Positions 727-54,370 of a DNA stretch of 55,854 bases are shown in pieces (positions within the stretch are counted from its first letter, which is position 1; every line of letters begins with the position of its first letter). The translations under genes were made by a program, and so were the position numbers. The DNA comes from a virus (lineage: Duplodnaviria; Caudoviricetes). The notes beneath the pieces are model-generated. The model worked only from the letters and a program-made list of their open reading frames with translations, had not been told where the DNA came from and made no database searches. The stretch spans positions 1-55,854 of the IMG/VR virus record IMGVR_UViG_3300049050_000058, one strand, 5' to 3'.

Positions 727-814
727 TGCCTGTGTCCCCCTAGAGGTCTTCTAAGCCTTTGACGTTAAATAAGGGGTTGGTAGTCAAGGAGTTCAAATCT
801 TCCACAGGCAACCA
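727..814 (+). tRNA. non-canonical tRNA-Arg(TCT)-like RNA lacking a normal D-arm
   Basis: Acceptor TGCCTGT/ACAGGCA + A + CCA; anticodon arm AGGT-CTTCTAA-GCCT; T-loop TTCAAAT; CCCC before the anticodon arm can pair with GGGG in a long variable region. Confidence 0.6.
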
Positions 815-819
815 AATTA

Positions 820-894
820 GGGCCTATAGCTTAAAGTAAAGCAGCCTGGCTCATAACCGGGATGATTTAGGAGCGTTACCTATTGGGCCCACCA
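820..894 (+). tRNA. tRNA-Met/Ile2 (CAT)
   Basis: Acceptor GGGCCTA/TGGGCCC, anticodon arm CCTGG-CTCATAA-CCGGG, encoded CCA; atypical T-loop AGCGTTA. Confidence 0.85.
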
Positions 895-5847: not shown

Positions 5848-5876
5848 TTGCATCACTCCCAAAGCTTCGCTAGAAT
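5848..5876 (+). promoter_or_regulatory. early sigma70 promoter
   Basis: TTGCAT-17-TAGAAT, UP-like AT tract. Confidence 0.7.
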
Positions 5877-5929
5877 GAGCACAACAAAGCAAGAAAGTTT
5901 CTCCAAACAATCAGCATAGGATACCAATC

Positions 5930-6166
5930 ATGAAAGCTTCCAAAGGTTATAACGGATTCAAAAATTACAACCAATGGAATATCTCGCTTTGGATCAACAA
6001 TGATGAGGTTTTGTATCGGATGGCTAAGGAATACATAGGCACCTACAAGCGTAATGAAGCAGCACAAGCAATGCTTGATGATCTGCGGGAGTATGGTATC
6101 ACTCACACACAAGATGGTGTAAAGTGGTCTAAAGCTGGCATCCTGGCTGCAATGGTAGGAATGTAA
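5930..6166 (+). CDS. phage early protein (YNGFKNYNQWNISLWINNDE motif)
   Basis: widespread phage motif; AGGA SD. Confidence 0.8.
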   Translation: MKASKGYNGFKNYNQWNISLWINNDEVLYRMAKEYIGTYKRNEAAQAMLDDLREYGITHTQDGVKWSKAGILAAMVGM

Positions 6167-6173
6167 AATATAC

Positions 6174-6270
6174 GAGGTTGTAGCTTAATTTAAAAGCAGC
6201 GGGGAACACAGAGGCTTCACGAAAGCTAATGCATCCGTCAATGTGGGTGAAACCCCCACCAACCTCACCT
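6174..6270 (+). ncRNA. tRNA-like RNA with expanded, branched anticodon arm
   Basis: Acceptor GAGGTTG/CAACCTC; D-arm GCT..AGC; T-arm GTGGG-TGAAACC-CCCAC; ~30-nt insert replaces the 7-nt anticodon loop; ends ACCT. Confidence 0.7.
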
Positions 6271-6277
6271 TATTCCT

Positions 6278-6305
6278 AAGCCCTCTCCACCGAGGGCTTT
6301 CTTAT
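6278..6305 (+). terminator. intrinsic terminator
   Basis: AAGCCCTC-loop-GAGGGCTT + T-rich tail. Confidence 0.8.
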
Positions 6306-6339
6306 ATCTAAATTCTTTTAAATTTTCTACAGAAAAGGC

Positions 6340-6367
6340 TTGCATCTGATTCCTCAAGCTGTATAAT
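6340..6367 (+). promoter_or_regulatory. early sigma70 promoter
   Basis: TTGCAT-16-TATAAT with TG; leader GAACCCATAGAAAGCAAACAA. Confidence 0.75.
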
Positions 6368-6410
6368 GAACCCATAGAAAGCAAACAACCCCGACACAAG
6401 GAATACTGAA

Positions 6411-6590
6411 ATGACCACCTACTTGAACCTCAAAACCTCCCAAGGTCGTGAAACTGTAGACCAGATCGACAAGCAAGAGGGACAATCTAACAAGGAACAT
6501 CGTGCGTATGTTCGTGATATGGTGAAAGAATATCACTTGGCTGGAATGAATGTTTACACTAGCTCCCGCTGCTGCTCCAACTGGAAATAA
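6411..6590 (+). CDS. hypothetical protein (59 aa, not in ORF track)
   Basis: AAGGA SD; MTTYLNLKTSQGRETVD...SSRCCSNWK. Confidence 0.75.
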   Translation: MTTYLNLKTSQGRETVDQIDKQEGQSNKEHRAYVRDMVKEYHLAGMNVYTSSRCCSNWK

Positions 6591-12809: not shown

Positions 12810-13214
12810 TCAATCAAGAGGCTTAATATATTTCCGTGCCCAAGCTACAACTTCGCCCCATTCTTCGGGAGAAATATCACCAAAGTCAAAAAGATTTTTA
12901 ACTCTATCAACTATTTCATCATCGGTCATTTCTGTATTCTCCAGATTCGCTTCCACAATCTTATCTCTGCCGCGTTTAGCTATTGCTTTTGACTTCTCTT
13001 CTGAAACTCTCATAACAGAGTAACACACTTTTACGTATTCACCAAGAAGAGCATCGTCATTCTTTATTTCATCAGGAATCTCAATTTCTTTCCTAGCTGT
13101 AGCACAAATATACCACCTCATTTCCTCTGGTGTCAAGGAAGATGGAATTAGAATAGATTCTCCTGAGATAGCTTTCTCCATTCTCTTTATGTCGAAATTT
13201 ATTTCATTAGTCAT
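12810..13214 (-). CDS. hypothetical protein
   Basis: TAATG overlap; 134 aa. Confidence 0.7.
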   Translation of the reverse strand: MTNEINFDIKRMEKAISGESILIPSSLTPEEMRWYICATARKEIEIPDEIKNDDALLGEYVKVCYSVMRVSEEKSKAIAKRGRDKIVEANLENTEMTDDEIVDRVKNLFDFGDISPEEWGEVVAWARKYIKPLD

Positions 13215-13441
13215 TACTTAGGCTCATCCAAGAAAAGATAGTCCTGATCTAATTCATTTAATGTCCAACAATAATCACCAGCACAAGTAGCTTCAACAGT
13301 CCAGACGCCATCAGCTATTTCTGGTACTTGATAGACCCTAAGTTTCTCTTTGTCTCCTTTCCACTCAGGCTTCATTATCCAGAAGAATTGATTGTTTTTT
13401 AAATCTTTAATTTTCAACATAATATTCTCTAATCTTTTCAA
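13214..13441 (-). CDS. hypothetical protein
   Basis: ORF; start may be 13420. Confidence 0.6.
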   Translation of the reverse strand: MKRLENIMLKIKDLKNNQFFWIMKPEWKGDKEKLRVYQVPEIADGVWTVEATCAGDYCWTLNELDQDYLFLDEPK

Positions 13442-24473: not shown

Positions 24474-24549
24474 GTTTGGGTAGCTCAATTGGCAGAGCAA
24501 CGGTCTCCAAAACCGTAGGTTGTTGGTTCAACTCCAACCCCATTCGCCA
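24474..24549 (+). tRNA. tRNA-Trp (CCA)
   Basis: ACGGT-CTCCAAA-ACCGT; TTCAACT loop; encoded CCA; two U-U mismatches in acceptor stem. Confidence 0.85.
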
Positions 24550-24555
24550 TTTCTT

Positions 24556-24627
24556 GCATCCGTACCCAAGTGGAATGGGACCAATTTTGTAAGTTGGAAG
24601 CCGTCAGTTCAAATCTGACCGGATGCT
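24556..24627 (+). tRNA. tRNA-Thr (TGT)
   Basis: GCATCCG/CGGATGC; CCAAT-TTTGTAA-GTTGG; TTCAAAT; no full CCA. Confidence 0.85.
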
Positions 24628-24629
24628 CC

Positions 24630-24704
24630 GCGTTCATAGTTTAATTGGCAAAACCCTAGACTTCCAATCTAGTGTTCCCAGATCGTTACTGGGTGGACGC
24701 TCCA
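24630..24704 (+). tRNA. tRNA-Gly (TCC)
   Basis: GCGTTCA/TGGACGC, U discriminator, CTAGA-CTTCCAA-TCTAG, CCA; T-loop ATCGTTA. Confidence 0.88.
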
Positions 24705-34237: not shown

Positions 34238-35303
34238 TTGGCTGAAATCGATAACATTGTACAAATTAATATTAGTCGAGAGTCTACACCAGTAGCAACG
34301 GCTAGTTTTCAAATCCCTTTGATCCTATCAACATTCACTAATTTTGCTGAACGTACTCGTGAATACACTGACTTTGATGCTGTAGCTTCTGATTTTGATT
34401 CTACTGATAAAGTCTATCAGATTGCTCAGCGAATTTTTGGTCAAACAGCAGGTATTCGTTTCCGTATTCCGAAAGTTGTTGTAGGTCGTCGTCAGGTAGA
34501 CGAAGTTACTATTGTTCCTGTTGTTTCCGATAATACTCTTTATCGTGTAACTATTAACGAAGTGGATTACACTTTTACTTCTGGAACTGGTGCAACTGCC
34601 ACAACTATTACTGCTGGTCTTGACACAGCTATTGGCACTCCAGCAGGAATTAATGTTAGCGCAGCGGGTGGTGTTCTGACTGTTGGTAGTGCCACGCCCG
34701 GTGCTAACTGGTCGGTCCGTACATCAAGCAATCTAACTGTCACTTACACTGCTCCAACCGAAACTTGGGTTGAAGCACTTGATGCTGTAAGCGAAGACAA
34801 CAATGATTGGTACGCTCTTGTAGCAGAAAGTCATGCAGACGCTGATATTAAATCTTTGGCAGAAACAATTCAAACTCGTCGTAAGATTTTTGGTACTTCC
34901 ACTCAAGATACCGCTGTTCCTACATCCGCTACTACTGACGTTGGTTCTTATCTAAACAATACCGGACTAGAACGTACTTTTATCACTTATCTTCCAACTG
35001 CGGATACTCAGTATCCCGAAGCTGCTTGGATTGGTAGTCAGCTTGCTGCAACTCCCGGCTCTAATGATTGGGATATGAAACAAGGTAGCCTGATTACTGT
35101 TAGTAAACTAACCGACACTCAACGTGCTAATCTGCGTGAGAAAAATGTCAACATGTTCACTAAAGTTGGTGGTGTAAATATTTTCCAAGACGGTAATACA
35201 GCTAAAGGTTCCCCTATCGATGAAGTAATTTTCATTGATTGGCTTTATGCTCGTCTGCAAGAAGGTATCTACTTCCGTCTGATTAATAGCCCCAAAGTTC
35301 CGT
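34238..35303 (+). CDS. tail sheath protein, exon 1 (spliced product 429 aa)
   Basis: DUF3383-type sheath; joins exon 2 in frame as KVP-FTNPG. Confidence 0.9.
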
Positions 35304-36434
35304 TAATGTTAGCGGCCTAAATTAGTAATAATTTGGTGAAAACCTCTCTAATTGCTGGAAACTCCTTAGAGTCTGTTGAACTACAACGCAAAACCTGATA
35401 TAATGGTTTATACGTGAATGTTTGAAAATCAACAGAATTGGACAATCAGCAGCAAAGCCCGAAAGGGAATGTTCAACGATCAGACATGAATGTCGTAGGA
35501 TCAAGTGATCCGAAATGGGAGGCAACCTACTAAGGTTGAAGATATGATCTAGTCTTACATGAAAGTGTAAGGTATTTGTGAGGGAATATTTATGAAACAC
35601 AAGCAATTCGATAAAGTATATCCGTACTCATATTTTCTAGTAAGAAAATCTGATGGAATGAAATATGTTGGTATAAGATATGCTAATGTGAAGAAAAATC
35701 TCACACCTTCCGAAGATTTCGGAAAGGTTTACTTCACATCTGGAAGATTAAGAAAAGAATTTAAAAATAACCCTGAAAATTTTGAGTACAGGCTTTGTTA
35801 TACATTTGACAACATAGAAGAAATGTTTGAATGGGAGAAGAATGTTGTACTCAAAGTTTACAAAAGACAGGATTGGGCTAATCAAGGATGGGGACCTAAT
35901 TTTGGTGAAAATCCTCTAATAGGTAACCTGATTCGTGAGGGACTTTATAAAAAAGATTCTTGCGGTAAAACAGCTAAAGAAAAACAAACAGAAAAATTTG
36001 TAGATTGGGTTTGGAATACAGAAGAAGGTGTTAACTGGAGAGTTAATATTTCAAAAAGAATTTCAAACATGCTTGATAATTTTTCTGAAGAGAAAAAGGC
36101 TGAAATACAGCAGAAAAGAAAACAAAGTATGGATTTTAAAGCAGCTTCGGTAAAGGCCCAAAAAACAATGAGAGAGGTTGGTGCTGATGGTTTAACCGGA
36201 CTACAAAGAAAAGCCAGAAAGTCCCATCAAAAATTAAAAGAATCTGGTAAAGCATCCGAACTCGGTAAAGAGAGGGATGCTAAATATACCAAAAAGCTCG
36301 GTGAGATGAGCGAAGAAGAATTTGAATTGTGGTGTGAAGGAAGATCGCCAAGAACTATTAACGGTGCGATTTCCCGAAGAAATAAATATCTAAAACAAAT
36401 CGGAGCAGATTAACGACCTGCTTTTAATAAAACG
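35304..36434 (+). mobile_element. group I intron in tail sheath gene (1131 nt)
   Basis: P1 CCGT/GCGG with U.G at the 5' site; P AATTGCTGGAAA, Q AATCAGCAG, R GTTCAACGATCAG, S AAGATATGATCT; terminal G. Confidence 0.92.
35592..36413 (+). CDS. intron-encoded homing endonuclease, GIY-YIG-like
   Basis: YSYFLV...KYVGIR..YFTS..E pattern; located in P9 region. Confidence 0.75.
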   Translation: MKHKQFDKVYPYSYFLVRKSDGMKYVGIRYANVKKNLTPSEDFGKVYFTSGRLRKEFKNNPENFEYRLCYTFDNIEEMFEWEKNVVLKVYKRQDWANQGWGPNFGENPLIGNLIREGLYKKDSCGKTAKEKQTEKFVDWVWNTEEGVNWRVNISKRISNMLDNFSEEKKAEIQQKRKQSMDFKAASVKAQKTMREVGADGLTGLQRKARKSHQKLKESGKASELGKERDAKYTKKLGEMSEEEFELWCEGRSPRTINGAISRRNKYLKQIGAD

Positions 36435-52681: not shown

Positions 52682-54370
52682 TTACTGACATGCTGCACAC
52701 TCATCCTTACTTGCTTGAACACCCGCTTTAGAATACACGTAGTAGAGACCAAGAATTTTTTCACTTTCGATTGCATATTGATGAATTTTAGAAATATAAG
52801 CTTCATCTTCACCCGCCGCAAAAAATAAATTCAAGCTTTGCCATTGATCAATATAATCACTGCGTGCTTCTGCTTGGCGAAGAATTGCCATTTGATCAAT
52901 CTCAAATGCTGTGCGGAAAACAAGTTTTTCTTCATCAGAGAAACAATCTTCTTTCTGAATACTGCCCATATTGTCACGAATACGTTCTACAAGAGCTTTG
53001 CTGTAAATTCCTTTTTCTTTCATAAGCTTCAGTAAGAAAGGATTAATTCGATCGACTTCTCCACCAGCACTGCGTTGAGTGAATACCATGGCTGTGTCGG
53101 GGTTGATACCTTCACTAACACCGCCCATAATCAGAGCTGTTGATTTTGTTGGTGCTACAGCAAGAAGATGACTGTTTGCACGCCCATATCCTTTACACCA
53201 CTCAGGCTCTCCCCATTGCTCCGCCAGCCATTTAGTGGCTTTCTCTGCTTCTTCTCGCATGTGTTTAAACACAACTCGGTTGAGCATGTGAGCTTCAAGA
53301 CTTTCAAAAGCAATCATCTTGCTTTGATATAGCGAAGAAAGACCACAAACACCTAAACCCAATGCCCTAGATTTTTTAGTGAAAGCAACTGCTTTTTCAA
53401 GACCTGGGATATTTTTAGCGCGCTCGATAAATTCTTGAACAACACAGTCAAGGAAAACAGTTGCTACAAAAACAGCATCAGTATTTTTCCATGCATCAAA
53501 ATGTAGAGCATTCATACTTGCAAGTACACAAGTGTAAATAAAATCTTTACTGCTATGCAGCATAATTTCATTACATAGTTGTGGAGCTTTAATGTCTAAA
53601 TTATGATCAATATACCACTTAGGACGTTTACGATTAGCTTTGTCAGGGAAGAAAAAATAACCTTTACCAGTAACCATTTTTGTTTTTAGAATTTTTTGAT
53701 ACTTGCGAATAGCTTCACTATCCCCGTTGTTCATTTTCTCCGTATCTTTGTCACTCCAATTCCAACCAATATTGTTACCATCAGGATGTTGTTCGAGATA
53801 GTCACAAACTTCATCAAAATCTCCATGAGATACAGGGAGATATCCAGCCCAACTACCTCGCCGTGCAGTACCTTGCACTACATATTCCATGTCATTTTGA
53901 ACACCCTGGATAATTGGGAGTACGCCTGTTGATTTACCTCCAGCACTAATCAACGATCCTCTTGGACGAATATCACCAAGATACCCAGCAGTACCAAAAC
54001 CGTATTTCGTTAGAATTGCTGTTTCTAATTTTGATTGGTAGATACCATAGATACTATCTGAAAAATAACTACCTGCACAAGAAACTGGCAAGCCACGGGT
54101 AGTTCCTGTGTTCGCTAGAACTGGAGTGGATGGACTGAGCCATCCTTTCCACATGATATCAAAAAATTTCTCTTTCCAGACAGAAGGATCAGTTGTATGA
54201 GCTGCTAGTGTAGCAGCAATTCGTTGATATTGCTCTTTTGGGTTAGAGGCTTGATACATGTACTTTTCTTTGAAAAGCTGCCAACCTCCTGTTGACCACC
54301 AATCAGGCATATTACCCTCAGCCTGTAGTTTTTTACGCTCTTCACTCAGTTTGTCATAAATATTACTCAA
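52682..54370 (-). CDS. nrdA: class I ribonucleotide reductase alpha subunit (short, no ATP cone)
   Basis: PSTPVLAN, PVSC, QLCNEI, APTKST, LYY, C-terminal CxxC. Confidence 0.95.
   Translation of the reverse strand: MSNIYDKLSEERKKLQAEGNMPDWWSTGGWQLFKEKYMYQASNPKEQYQRIAATLAAHTTDPSVWKEKFFDIMWKGWLSPSTPVLANTGTTRGLPVSCAGSYFSDSIYGIYQSKLETAILTKYGFGTAGYLGDIRPRGSLISAGGKSTGVLPIIQGVQNDMEYVVQGTARRGSWAGYLPVSHGDFDEVCDYLEQHPDGNNIGWNWSDKDTEKMNNGDSEAIRKYQKILKTKMVTGKGYFFFPDKANRKRPKWYIDHNLDIKAPQLCNEIMLHSSKDFIYTCVLASMNALHFDAWKNTDAVFVATVFLDCVVQEFIERAKNIPGLEKAVAFTKKSRALGLGVCGLSSLYQSKMIAFESLEAHMLNRVVFKHMREEAEKATKWLAEQWGEPEWCKGYGRANSHLLAVAPTKSTALIMGGVSEGINPDTAMVFTQRSAGGEVDRINPFLLKLMKEKGIYSKALVERIRDNMGSIQKEDCFSDEEKLVFRTAFEIDQMAILRQAEARSDYIDQWQSLNLFFAAGEDEAYISKIHQYAIESEKILGLYYVYSKAGVQASKDECAACQ

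What the first reader, a model, noticed from the sequence alone, without database searches (positions are those of the whole stretch)
6174..6305. tRNA-shaped RNA with no anticodon in the early region
Seen: a perfect 7-bp acceptor, a D-arm and a 5-bp T-arm are present, but the anticodon stem (CGGG/TCCG) closes ~30 nt containing its own hairpin GCTT-CACGA-AAGC. It ends ACCT and is followed directly by a terminator. It is co-transcribed from an early promoter, far from the real tRNAs. The insert is too short for a self-splicing intron. Inference: a tRNA mimic, for example a decoy for tRNA-targeting defences (PrrC/RloC-type), an RNase P/Z-processed sRNA, or a Y-RNA-like scaffold.
Basis: partly seen in the sequence, partly recalled or inferred. 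Interest (0 to 1): 0.7.

Follow-up and report, generated by a model that had tools for sequence, protein, structure and literature searches.

The report
Phage tRNA-shaped RNA without anticodon
An uncultured soil phage carries a small gene that folds like a tRNA but has a 30-base folded insert where the codon-reading loop should be, much like the long-known but still unexplained tRNA-like stable RNAs of phage T5.

Summary
Window 6174-6267 folds into a cloverleaf: a perfect 7-bp acceptor, a 4-bp D-arm and a 5-bp T-arm. A 5-bp "anticodon" stem closes 30 nt that contain a 5-bp hairpin. A terminator follows 10 nt later. Rfam's tRNA model scores it 40.9 bits (cut-off 29), but only in a small search window; default ARAGORN and whole-window Rfam miss it.

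I found one related contig (G001, terminase 98% identical) with the element in the same gene context. It differs at 12 of 94 bases. Two T-stem pairs changed on both sides, two pairs changed to or from wobble, and one pair broke. That is suggestive, not strong (P 0.006-0.08 under random substitution). Full-model scans of three of the next-closest complete genomes, and filtered scans of 35 related records, found no other copy.

No single excision restores a 7-nt anticodon loop in both copies, so an intron-bearing tRNA is unlikely. The architecture matches phage T5 RNA1 and RNA2, annotated "tRNA-like stable RNA with unknown functions", without sequence homology.

Best reading: a non-decoding tRNA-shaped small RNA in which the tRNA frame gives processing and stability and displays the insert. 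Its target is unknown and expression is untested. This scan had already noted the G001 copy. New member of a known kind; moderate interest.

The parts
5848..5876 (+). Promoter-like site TTGCAT-N17-TAGAAT, preceded by an A/T-rich tract. Presumed start of the transcription unit.
   Evidence: Pattern TTGCAT-N16-18-TANAAT gives 3 matches in the window against 0.27 expected. Sequence read. The same motif recurs at 6340-6367 and is kept in G001. Function is inferred.
5930..6166 (+). 78-aa early ORF (P0001) of unknown function, DUF7249 / phrog_871. It lies upstream of the RNA in the same presumed transcript.
   Evidence: Pfam DUF7249 E 2.3e-13. phrog_871 E 5.9e-24. The G001 homologue is 86% identical and in the same position.
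6174..6267 (+). tRNA-shaped RNA, 94 nt to the discriminator A. Acceptor 6174-6180/6260-6266. D-arm 6183-6197. Central stem 6199-6203/6234-6238. Variable loop 6239-6242. T-arm 6243-6259.
   Evidence: Sequence. Minimum-free-energy cloverleaf. RF00005 40.9 bits. Homologue in G001 at 41.4 bits.
6204..6233 (+). 30-nt insert replacing the 7-nt anticodon loop. It has a 5x2 internal loop, 2 bp (6209-6210/6230-6231), a 2x2 GA/AA internal loop, and the hairpin GGCTT-CACGA-AAGCT (6213-6227).
   Evidence: 27 of 30 bases are identical in G001, and the hairpin is kept with G.U changed to G-C. There is no other copy of the insert in 5 genomes.
6268..6277 (+). 3' trailer CCTTATTCCT. CCA is not encoded: ACCT here, ACTC in G001.
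6278..6305 (+). Intrinsic terminator: an 8-bp stem with a 6-nt loop, then a T-rich tract.
   Evidence: G001 has a terminator-like hairpin (9-bp stem by reading, then a T run) of different sequence at the same place (segment identity 19 of 28).

Best explanation
It is a tRNA-derived, non-decoding small RNA, a natural 'tRNA scaffold'.

Proposed path:
1. The RNA is transcribed early as the last element of a one-gene cassette: promoter 5848, ORF 5930-6166, RNA 6174-6267, terminator 6278.
2. The acceptor/T-arm stack and the intact tRNA core let host RNase P cut at 6173/6174.
3. Host 3' nucleases trim the trailer, possibly followed by CCA addition.
4. This releases a compact, nuclease-resistant RNA of about 94-97 nt.
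5. The former anticodon arm is now an irregular helix of about 12 bp capped by a 5-nt loop. It cannot reach the decoding centre, so the RNA does not read codons. The arm is instead the displayed, functional part, bound by a host or phage factor that is not yet known.

Shown: the fold, membership of the tRNA model by its body, the absence of an anticodon loop, conservation in one relative, and the same architecture as T5 RNA1 and RNA2.

Inferred: transcription, processing, stability, and that the insert is the working part.
For: - RF00005 scores above its cut-off in both copies: 40.9 and 41.4 bits against 29. That is as high as the phage's own tRNA-Met at 39.9 bits.
- By inspection against standard tRNA numbering (recalled), the core positions are present in both copies: U8, A14, A21, G10-C25, A26, A15/U48, G53-C61 and U54/A58.
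- The minimum-free-energy folds of both copies are the same cloverleaf, z = -2.4 and -3.2.
- Between the copies, 55 of 56 pair cells are standard pairs. Two T-stem pairs changed on both sides, and two pairs changed on one side to or from wobble. A third near-identical variant in a soil run differs at one base in 601. That base, 6257 C>T, turns a T-stem G-C into G.U.
- With 12 random substitutions, one broken pair or fewer has P = 0.006 to 0.08, depending on the transition share assumed.
- The one change at the base that would be U33 under the intron reading (T to C, element position 54) strengthens the inner hairpin (G.U to G-C). It destroys the only possible anticodon loop.
- T5 RNA1 and RNA2, annotated 'tRNA-like stable RNA with unknown functions', have the same build. 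RF00005 aligns RNA1 with 47 nt in place of the 7-nt loop. Both fold as cloverleaves, and relaxed ARAGORN calls them 'tRNAs with 40- and 48-nt introns', just as it calls this element.
- Engineered tRNA scaffolds have their anticodon stem-loop replaced by an insert. They are recognised by E. coli factors and sheltered from nucleases (PMC3753655, introduction and results passages read).
Against: - I found only two copies, in phages whose terminases are 98% identical.
- The shuffle control has no power: 110 of 500 shuffles reach the observed values. With the observed transition share (10 of 12), P is only about 0.08.
- Overall identity, 82 of 94 (87%), is no higher than that of the flanking genes at 86% and 93%.
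- One central-stem pair is broken in G001, G-C to A.C.
- The element was not found in the other 34 related records (filtered CM search). It was also not found in full-model scans of three complete relatives. It is therefore young or dispensable.
- The D- and T-loops lack the canonical G18G19/T-Psi-C elbow that RNase P and other tRNA enzymes normally contact.
- No expression, processing or binding data exist.
Confidence: 0.55

Rival explanations
1. It is a recently disabled tRNA gene. A short insertion, for example the scar of a mobile element, destroyed the anticodon loop in the common ancestor of two very close phages. The rest has not yet had time to decay.
For: - The element is confined to two close genomes. 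It was not found in the other 34 related records or in three complete relatives scanned with the full model.
- Its identity (87%) is no higher than that of the flanking genes.
- One stem pair is already broken in G001.
- The T-arm carries 8 of the 12 differences.
- The statistics for pair conservation are only suggestive.
Against: - 6 of the 7 substitutions in stems keep pairing, among them two pairs changed on both sides.
- The acceptor stays fully paired in both copies.
- Both copies still score above the tRNA cut-off.
- The insert itself is the best-kept part, 27 of 30 bases.
- It has a dedicated position in front of a terminator whose stem has itself changed while still pairing.
- No pre-insertion tRNA and no repeated copy of the insert was found.
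Confidence: 0.2
2. It acts in cis. The tRNA shape is an RNase P (and RNase Z/E) entry site that cuts the early mRNA away from its terminator hairpin. This sets the lifetime of the upstream DUF7249 message. The released RNA itself has no function.
For: - It lies 7 nt after the stop codon of the ORF and 10 nt before the terminator, in both copies.
- tRNA-like RNase P sites inside bacterial operon mRNAs are established knowledge (recalled, not read here).
Against: - This reading needs only the acceptor/T-arm half. It does not explain why the 30-nt insert and its hairpin are the most conserved part.
- In G001 nine extra bases separate the ORF from the RNA, so the spacing is not constrained.
Confidence: 0.12
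3. It is a decoy or sponge for a host tRNA-directed defence (an anticodon nuclease or another tRNA-sensing effector) or for a tRNA-binding enzyme. It is recognised by its tRNA body but cannot be cut productively. This is a special case of the best explanation with the partner named.
For: - It sits in an early, promoter-proximal cassette among small accessory genes.
- Phage tRNAs are known to neutralise tRNA-cleaving defences. PARIS: PMC11464382. Retron and T5 tRNA-Tyr: bioRxiv 10.1101/2023.03.15.532788. I saw both only as search listings and abstracts.
Against: - Known rescues work by supplying a functional, cleavage-resistant tRNA, not an anticodon-less one.
- There is no 7-nt anticodon-like loop, and the apical loop varies at 2 of 5 bases between close relatives.
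- No tRNA repair or ligase genes were found in G000 or G001.
- The host and its defences are unknown.
Confidence: 0.08
4. It is an intron-bearing tRNA. A 21-30-nt intervening sequence is removed by proteins to give a decoding tRNA. ARAGORN's reading is tRNA-Ile(AAU).
For: - Relaxed ARAGORN calls tRNA-Ile(AAT) with a 21-nt intron at 31/32.
- Unexplained short 'introns' have been reported in tRNA genes of Lak megaphages (PMC6784885, passages read).
Against: - I read every split of a 7-nt loop between the two stem registers. Only two splits give U33 in the window, and both give anticodon AAU.
- In G001 that base is C, and ARAGORN with the same settings does not call the G001 copy.
- An A34 Ile anticodon is not used by bacteria (established knowledge, recalled).
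- The internal loops (5x2 and 2x2) are not a bulge-helix-bulge.
- There was no ribozyme match.
- No RtcB or RNA ligase was found in G000 or in G001, which is 91% complete.
Confidence: 0.05

Closest known systems
Phage T5 RNA1 and RNA2 (AY543070, 30501-30644 and 32959-33083; annotated 'tRNA-like stable RNA with unknown functions')
   Same: A tRNA frame (acceptor, D-arm, T-arm) with a long folded insert where the 7-nt anticodon loop should be. No encoded CCA. Relaxed ARAGORN miscalls them as intron-bearing tRNAs, as it does this element. RF00005 aligns T5 RNA1 with 47 nt in place of the loop.
   Different: - No sequence homology. My model gives only an 11-bit partial hit on RNA1 and none on RNA2.
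- The T5 RNAs are longer, 125-144 nt with 40-48-nt inserts.
- RNA1 has a class II frame with a long variable arm.
- Both have canonical GGTTC-type T-loops.
- They lie inside the tRNA gene cluster.
- This element is 94 nt, has a class I frame and non-canonical D- and T-loops, and sits alone at the end of an early cassette.
Canonical tRNA (Rfam RF00005), including this phage group's own early tRNA-Met (window 820-894)
   Same: Scores above the family cut-off. It has a 7/4/5/5-bp cloverleaf and the tRNA core positions. Its D-arm is almost the consensus. Like the phage tRNA-Met, it lacks GG in the D-loop and T-Psi-C in the T-loop.
   Different: No 7-nt anticodon loop and no conserved U33 or anticodon. 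CCA is not encoded, whereas 3 of the 4 ordinary tRNAs here encode it. Default ARAGORN does not call it.
Phage T4 rnaC and rnaD (species 1 and 2 small stable RNAs)
   Same: Small stable phage RNAs of unknown function encoded beside tRNAs. rnaC ends in a canonical T-arm, and relaxed ARAGORN finds a tRNA-like call in it.
   Different: They are 119-139 nt. They do not fold into a simple cloverleaf with an anticodon insert. They show no match to my model at E up to 1.
Engineered 'tRNA scaffold' for recombinant RNA expression (PMC3753655)
   Same: The same design: acceptor stem, T- and D-arms kept, and the anticodon stem-loop replaced by a hairpin insert. The stated result is recognition by E. coli factors and shelter from nucleases (passages read).
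   Different: It is man-made and uses canonical tRNA bodies with an intact elbow. It is an analogy for mechanism, not a relative.
'Enigmatic introns' in tRNA genes of Lak megaphages (PMC6784885)
   Same: Phage tRNA genes that are too long and are recognised only when an insert in the anticodon region is allowed. How the insert is removed, if at all, is unknown (passages read).
   Different: In Lak phages an anticodon and a tRNA type could be assigned, and intron-free alleles exist. Here no conserved anticodon loop can be restored.

Membership tests
tRNA (Rfam RF00005) | Score at or above the family's gathering cut-off (29 bits) | tested here: met
   40.9 bits in the window and 41.4 bits in G001. 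The filters lost it in the whole-window and 301-nt searches.
tRNA (Rfam RF00005) | A 7-nt anticodon loop with U33 and an anticodon on a 5-bp stem | tested here: not met
   30 nt lie between the stem strands. The only loop with U33 that an excision could give (CTAATGC) reads CCAATGC in G001.
tRNA (Rfam RF00005) | Called by a standard tRNA finder with default settings | tested here: not met
   ARAGORN default finds 4 genes, none of them here. tRNAscan-SE was not available.
tRNA (Rfam RF00005) | D-loop G18G19 and T-loop T-Psi-C elbow | tested here: not met
   The D-loop is AATTTAA. The T-loop is TGAAACC here and TGCAAAT in G001. U54 and A58 are present.
tRNA (Rfam RF00005) | 3' CCA and aminoacylation | not testable with these tools
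   CCA is not encoded: ACCT here, ACTC in G001. CCA addition and charging need experiments.
Phage tRNA-like stable RNAs (T5 RNA1/RNA2 type) | A tRNA frame with a long structured insert in place of the anticodon loop | tested here: met
   This element. T5 RNA1 and RNA2.
Phage tRNA-like stable RNAs (T5 RNA1/RNA2 type) | Sequence or profile homology to T5 RNA1 or RNA2 | tested here: not met
   Model R1 with filters off gives an 11.1-bit partial hit on RNA1 and none on RNA2.
Phage tRNA-like stable RNAs (T5 RNA1/RNA2 type) | Accumulates as a discrete stable RNA in infected cells | not testable with these tools
   No RNA data could be laid on the stretch. Only DNA contigs were available.
Phage tRNA-like stable RNAs (T5 RNA1/RNA2 type) | Encoded within the phage tRNA gene cluster | tested here: not met
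   The cluster is at 24474-24704. This element is at 6174, alone behind an ORF.
Intron-containing tRNA (group I, bulge-helix-bulge, or protein-spliced) | Excision restores a canonical anticodon loop in all homologues | tested here: not met
   Read by position. ARAGORN -i -ps calls the window copy but not the G001 copy.
Intron-containing tRNA (group I, bulge-helix-bulge, or protein-spliced) | A ribozyme core or bulge-helix-bulge motif, or a splicing ligase in the genome | tested here: not met
   The insert is 30 nt with no intron family match. The internal loops are 5x2 and 2x2. RtcB and RNA_ligase were found in 0 of 2 records.
tmRNA | A tRNA-like domain together with a tag reading frame; called by ARAGORN or Rfam | tested here: not met
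   ARAGORN -m finds 0 genes. There is no Rfam match.
Bacterial Y RNA / YrlA | A Ro60-binding helix with a closed tRNA-like module, together with a Ro60 (TROVE) gene | tested here: not met
   No Rfam match at E up to 10. TROVE was found in 0 of 2 records. The topology is the reverse: here the acceptor ends are the RNA's own ends.

The most novel reading that the evidence does not exclude
The RNA is a minimal natural tRNA scaffold that works as an early anti-defence or host-takeover RNA. A host tRNA-directed immune nuclease or sensor, or a tRNA-binding enzyme, takes up its tRNA body. The lengthened, anticodon-less arm makes it uncleavable or locks the partner. If so, phage 'tRNA-like stable RNAs', unexplained since T4 and T5, would be a class of RNA inhibitors.
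Probability: 0.1. Interest if true: 0.75.

Novelty: new member of a known kind. Interest (0 to 1): 0.4.

Why it matters
Phages T4 and T5 have carried annotated small, stable, tRNA-like RNAs of unknown function for decades. Notes from this scan suggest that tRNA frames with swapped anticodon arms are common in uncultured phages (unchecked leads).

This 94-nt element is a very small and clean example. It has a class I frame, a 30-nt insert, and its own promoter-ORF-RNA-terminator cassette. That makes it a convenient construct for asking three questions:
- Is such an RNA processed like a tRNA?
- Does it receive CCA?
- What does the insert bind?

It also shows a practical gap. Default ARAGORN and whole-genome Rfam runs miss it, so such RNAs go unannotated.

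On its own, from an uncultured soil phage with only one known relative and no expression data, it does not settle the function of this class.

Tried and rejected
Homologue hunting:
- Exact-pattern scans with four short stretches of the element gave the following counts.
  - Viral contigs: 0, 1, 5 and 45 loci.
  - Metagenome contigs: 0 and 16 loci.
  - Genome contigs: 0 loci.
- My covariance model R1 (built from the two copies) accepted only the window and G001 elements among 22 + 44 sources.
  - It also gave weak hits on the early tRNA-Met.
  - It gave three identical-scoring 24.5-bit hits. I looked at one of the three, and it is an ordinary tRNA-Tyr.
- R1 over 35 related viral records found G001, plus one hit at E 0.8 in G018 that does not fold like a tRNA. 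One record (L033) was not held.
- RF00005 over 5 + 31 records gave no other long hit above the cut-off. The 100-nt, 16-bit hit in G018 was rejected on folding.
- R1 with filters off on G002, G004 and G005 found only ordinary tRNAs. I folded five borderline long hits. Four are not tRNA-like, and one is the reverse strand of a tRNA-Ser.
- The flanking proteins P0001 and P0002 are absent from G002-G006.
- blastn of 5900-6500 against 50,697 phage records gave 10 records, all matching only the ORF.

Ancestry:
- No tRNA of G000, G001, G002, G004 or G005 resembles the body.
- I first took R1's 29-bit hit on the window's tRNA-Met as a sign of paralogy. I dropped that reading because R1 scores unrelated T5 and T4 tRNAs equally high.
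- No donor for either T-arm was found.
- The insert is not repeated elsewhere.

Antisense target: no complementarity longer than 10 nt between the insert and the window, which is about the chance level.

Expression: no RNA holder was listed among the 11 sequencing runs. Only DNA contigs could be laid. Runs X3 and X5 covered only the flanks, and X4 laid nothing.

Neighbour context: P0001 homologues in Pseudomonas phage vB_PsaM_M1 and Escherichia phage JohannJBalmer have no tRNA annotated beside them.

Literature: six searches found no description of this element and no function for T5 RNA1 or RNA2 in the open library. Older subscription papers on T4 and T5 stable RNAs are not held. Supplementary files, such as the Lak intron table of PMC6784885, were closed.

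A relaxed ARAGORN call in G002 (13150-13241) is a false positive with a mismatched acceptor.

Full report
**What is there.** Window 6174-6267 (+ strand) reads as a cloverleaf. Its parts are:
- a 7-bp Watson-Crick acceptor, 6174-6180/6260-6266;
- U8 and A9;
- a 4-bp D-stem with loop AATTTAA;
- a 5-bp central stem, GCGGG/TCCGT;
- a 4-nt variable loop;
- a 5-bp T-stem with loop TGAAACC;
- discriminator A, then CCT.

The central stem closes 30 nt instead of a 7-nt anticodon loop. Within those 30 nt, ViennaRNA predicts a 5x2 internal loop, 2 bp, a 2x2 GA/AA loop and the hairpin GGCUU-CACGA-AAGCU. The minimum-free-energy structure of the whole is the cloverleaf (-29.7 kcal/mol, z = -2.41). A terminator-like hairpin at 6278-6299 with a T tract follows after 10 nt.

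Upstream lie a 78-aa ORF (5930-6166; DUF7249, phrog_871) and a promoter-like TTGCAT-N17-TAGAAT at 5848-5876. That motif occurs 3 times in the window against 0.27 expected, and again at 6340 in front of the next cassette. Transcription itself is inferred.

**Is it more than chance?** Default ARAGORN, Rfam at gathering thresholds on the whole window and Rfam in E-value mode on 301 nt all miss it. On a 111-nt stretch, where the filters are laxer, RF00005 scores 40.9 bits (cut-off 29; E 5.6e-8). It aligns the acceptor, D-arm and T-arm fully and places 32 nt where 9 loop positions belong. By my arithmetic, scaling that E-value to the whole window still leaves about 3e-5. The body is a real member of the tRNA family.

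**Source and relatives.** The window is a 55.9-kb viral contig, estimated 62% complete. It belongs to a myovirus of about 90 kb, with terminase, portal, sheath, baseplate and ribonucleotide reductase genes. Its terminase is at most 46% identical to cultured Pseudomonas and Pectobacterium phages.

Forty-seven related viral loci were found by terminase. One, G001 (terminase 98% identical, 84 kb), has the element in the same context: the P0001 homologue upstream, then a terminator, the promoter and the P0002 homologue downstream. RF00005 gives that copy 41.4 bits.

No other homologue turned up:
- The covariance model built from the two copies found none in the other 34 related records, with filters on.
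- The same model with filters off found none in G002, G004 and G005.
- Pattern scans of viral, metagenome and genome collections gave only chance hits.

A soil sequencing run holds a near-identical contig with one difference in 601 bases. That difference, 6257 C>T, turns a T-stem G-C into G.U.

**What the comparison says.**
- The two copies differ at 12 of 94 positions. That is 87% identity, much like the flanks at 86% upstream and 93% downstream.
- Seven differences lie in stems, and six of them keep pairing. Two T-stem pairs changed on both sides (U-A to C-G, G-C to A-U). One acceptor pair went U-A to U.G. One hairpin pair went G.U to G-C. One central-stem pair broke, G-C to A.C.
- With two sequences the shuffle control is powerless: 110 of 500 shuffles reach the observed values.
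- A null of 12 random substitutions gives one broken pair or fewer with P = 0.006 to 0.08, depending on the transition share assumed. Ten of the 12 observed changes are transitions, and at that share P is 0.08.
- The structure is therefore probably under selection, but this is not proven. The insert is the best-conserved part, 27 of 30 bases. The T-arm carries 8 of the 12 changes.

**Not an intron-bearing tRNA.** Relaxed ARAGORN calls the window copy tRNA-Ile(AAT) with a 21-nt intron at 31/32. I read all ways of composing a 7-nt loop from the first and last bases of the insert, in both possible stem registers. Only two splits give U33, and both give anticodon AAU. In G001 that U is C, and the same ARAGORN settings do not call the G001 copy. 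The T-to-C change is instead explained by the inner hairpin, where it turns G.U into G-C.

Further points against splicing:
- The loops are not a bulge-helix-bulge.
- Thirty nucleotides cannot be a ribozyme, and no intron family matches.
- Neither RtcB nor an RNA ligase was found in G000 or G001.

An arm of about 12 bp with a 5-nt loop cannot place an anticodon in the decoding centre. This rests on established tRNA geometry and is an inference.

**Closest known.** The T5 record AY543070 annotates rna1 and rna2 as 'tRNA-like stable RNA with unknown functions'.
- RF00005 aligns RNA1 with 47 nt in place of the 7-nt anticodon loop, at 24 bits.
- Both fold as cloverleaves with long central arms. 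Relaxed ARAGORN calls them 'tRNA-Leu with a 40-nt intron' and 'tRNA-Arg with a 48-nt intron', the same artefact as here.
- Neither encodes CCA.
- There is no sequence homology to this element.

T4 rnaC and rnaD are also annotated as small stable RNAs beside tRNAs, but they do not share the simple architecture. The engineered tRNA scaffold keeps the acceptor, T- and D-arms and replaces the anticodon stem-loop with an insert. It is recognised by E. coli factors and protected from nucleases (PMC3753655, passages read). That gives a tested analogy for how such an RNA would be matured and stabilised.

Notes from this scan had already recorded the G001 copy and similar tRNA frames with inserts in other phages. 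I used them as leads and checked the T5 and Lak leads myself.

**Mechanism proposed.**
1. Early transcription from 5848.
2. RNase P cuts at 6173/6174.
3. The 10-nt trailer and terminator are trimmed from the 3' end, possibly followed by CCA addition by the host. No CCA-adding enzyme gene was found in G000 or G001.
4. The product is a compact L-shaped RNA of about 94-97 nt whose extended arm is the functional surface.

The partner is unknown. I found no antisense target, no Ro60 gene and no tRNA-related gene among the proteins scanned against Pfam and PHROGs.

I put 0.55 on 'selected, non-decoding tRNA-shaped RNA'. Of the remainder:
- 0.2 on a young pseudogene;
- 0.12 on a purely cis-acting processing site;
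- 0.08 on a named-partner decoy reading;
- 0.05 on an intron.

**Verdict.**
- It is a new, sequence-unrelated and unusually small member of a known but unexplained kind, the phage tRNA-like stable RNAs.
- Interest is moderate. The kind is not new, the family has two members, and nothing is known about expression.
- It is nonetheless a clean test object for an old open question.

Noticed in passing
window 727-814: A second odd tRNA-like stretch lies directly upstream of tRNA-Met. It has an 8-bp terminal helix, a canonical-looking T-arm (GGAGTTCAAATCTTCC) and a 3' end of ACCA, but no normal D-arm. ARAGORN calls it only at a very low threshold, as tRNA-Gly(gcc). It is not present at the matching place in G001.
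   Followed up: partly
window 820-894: The early-region tRNA-Met(CAT) has non-canonical D- and T-loops: one G in the D-loop, and T-loop AGCGTTA. It scores only 39.9 bits, yet it is kept in G001 and a related one is present in G002. This phage group seems to tolerate tRNAs without the usual elbow.
   Followed up: partly
window 24556-24704: tRNA-Thr ends ...TCC and the next base is the first G of tRNA-Gly, so its CCA is not fully encoded. tRNA-Trp, tRNA-Gly and tRNA-Met do encode CCA.
   Followed up: no
window 35294-35571: A group I intron (RF00028, 83.7 bits) lies next to the tail-sheath reading frame 34238-35320.
   Followed up: no
window 5848-5876 and 6340-6367: A shared early promoter-like motif, TTGCAT-N16/17-TAnAAT, stands behind A/T-rich tracts. 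The second copy and its leader are almost identical in G001 (93% over 6306-6410).
   Followed up: partly
window 6243-6259 compared with L002 1823-1839: The T-arm holds 7 of the 12 differences between the two copies of the element, an eighth lies in the adjoining acceptor strand, and the first 70 nt hold only 4. No donor T-arm was found in five genomes. The clustering is unexplained. It could be a local exchange or relaxed or positive selection.
   Followed up: partly
window 54122-54305 (- strand): Relaxed ARAGORN calls a 'tRNA-Gln with a 91-nt intron' inside the ribonucleotide reductase large-subunit gene. This is most likely a false positive of the low threshold.
   Followed up: no
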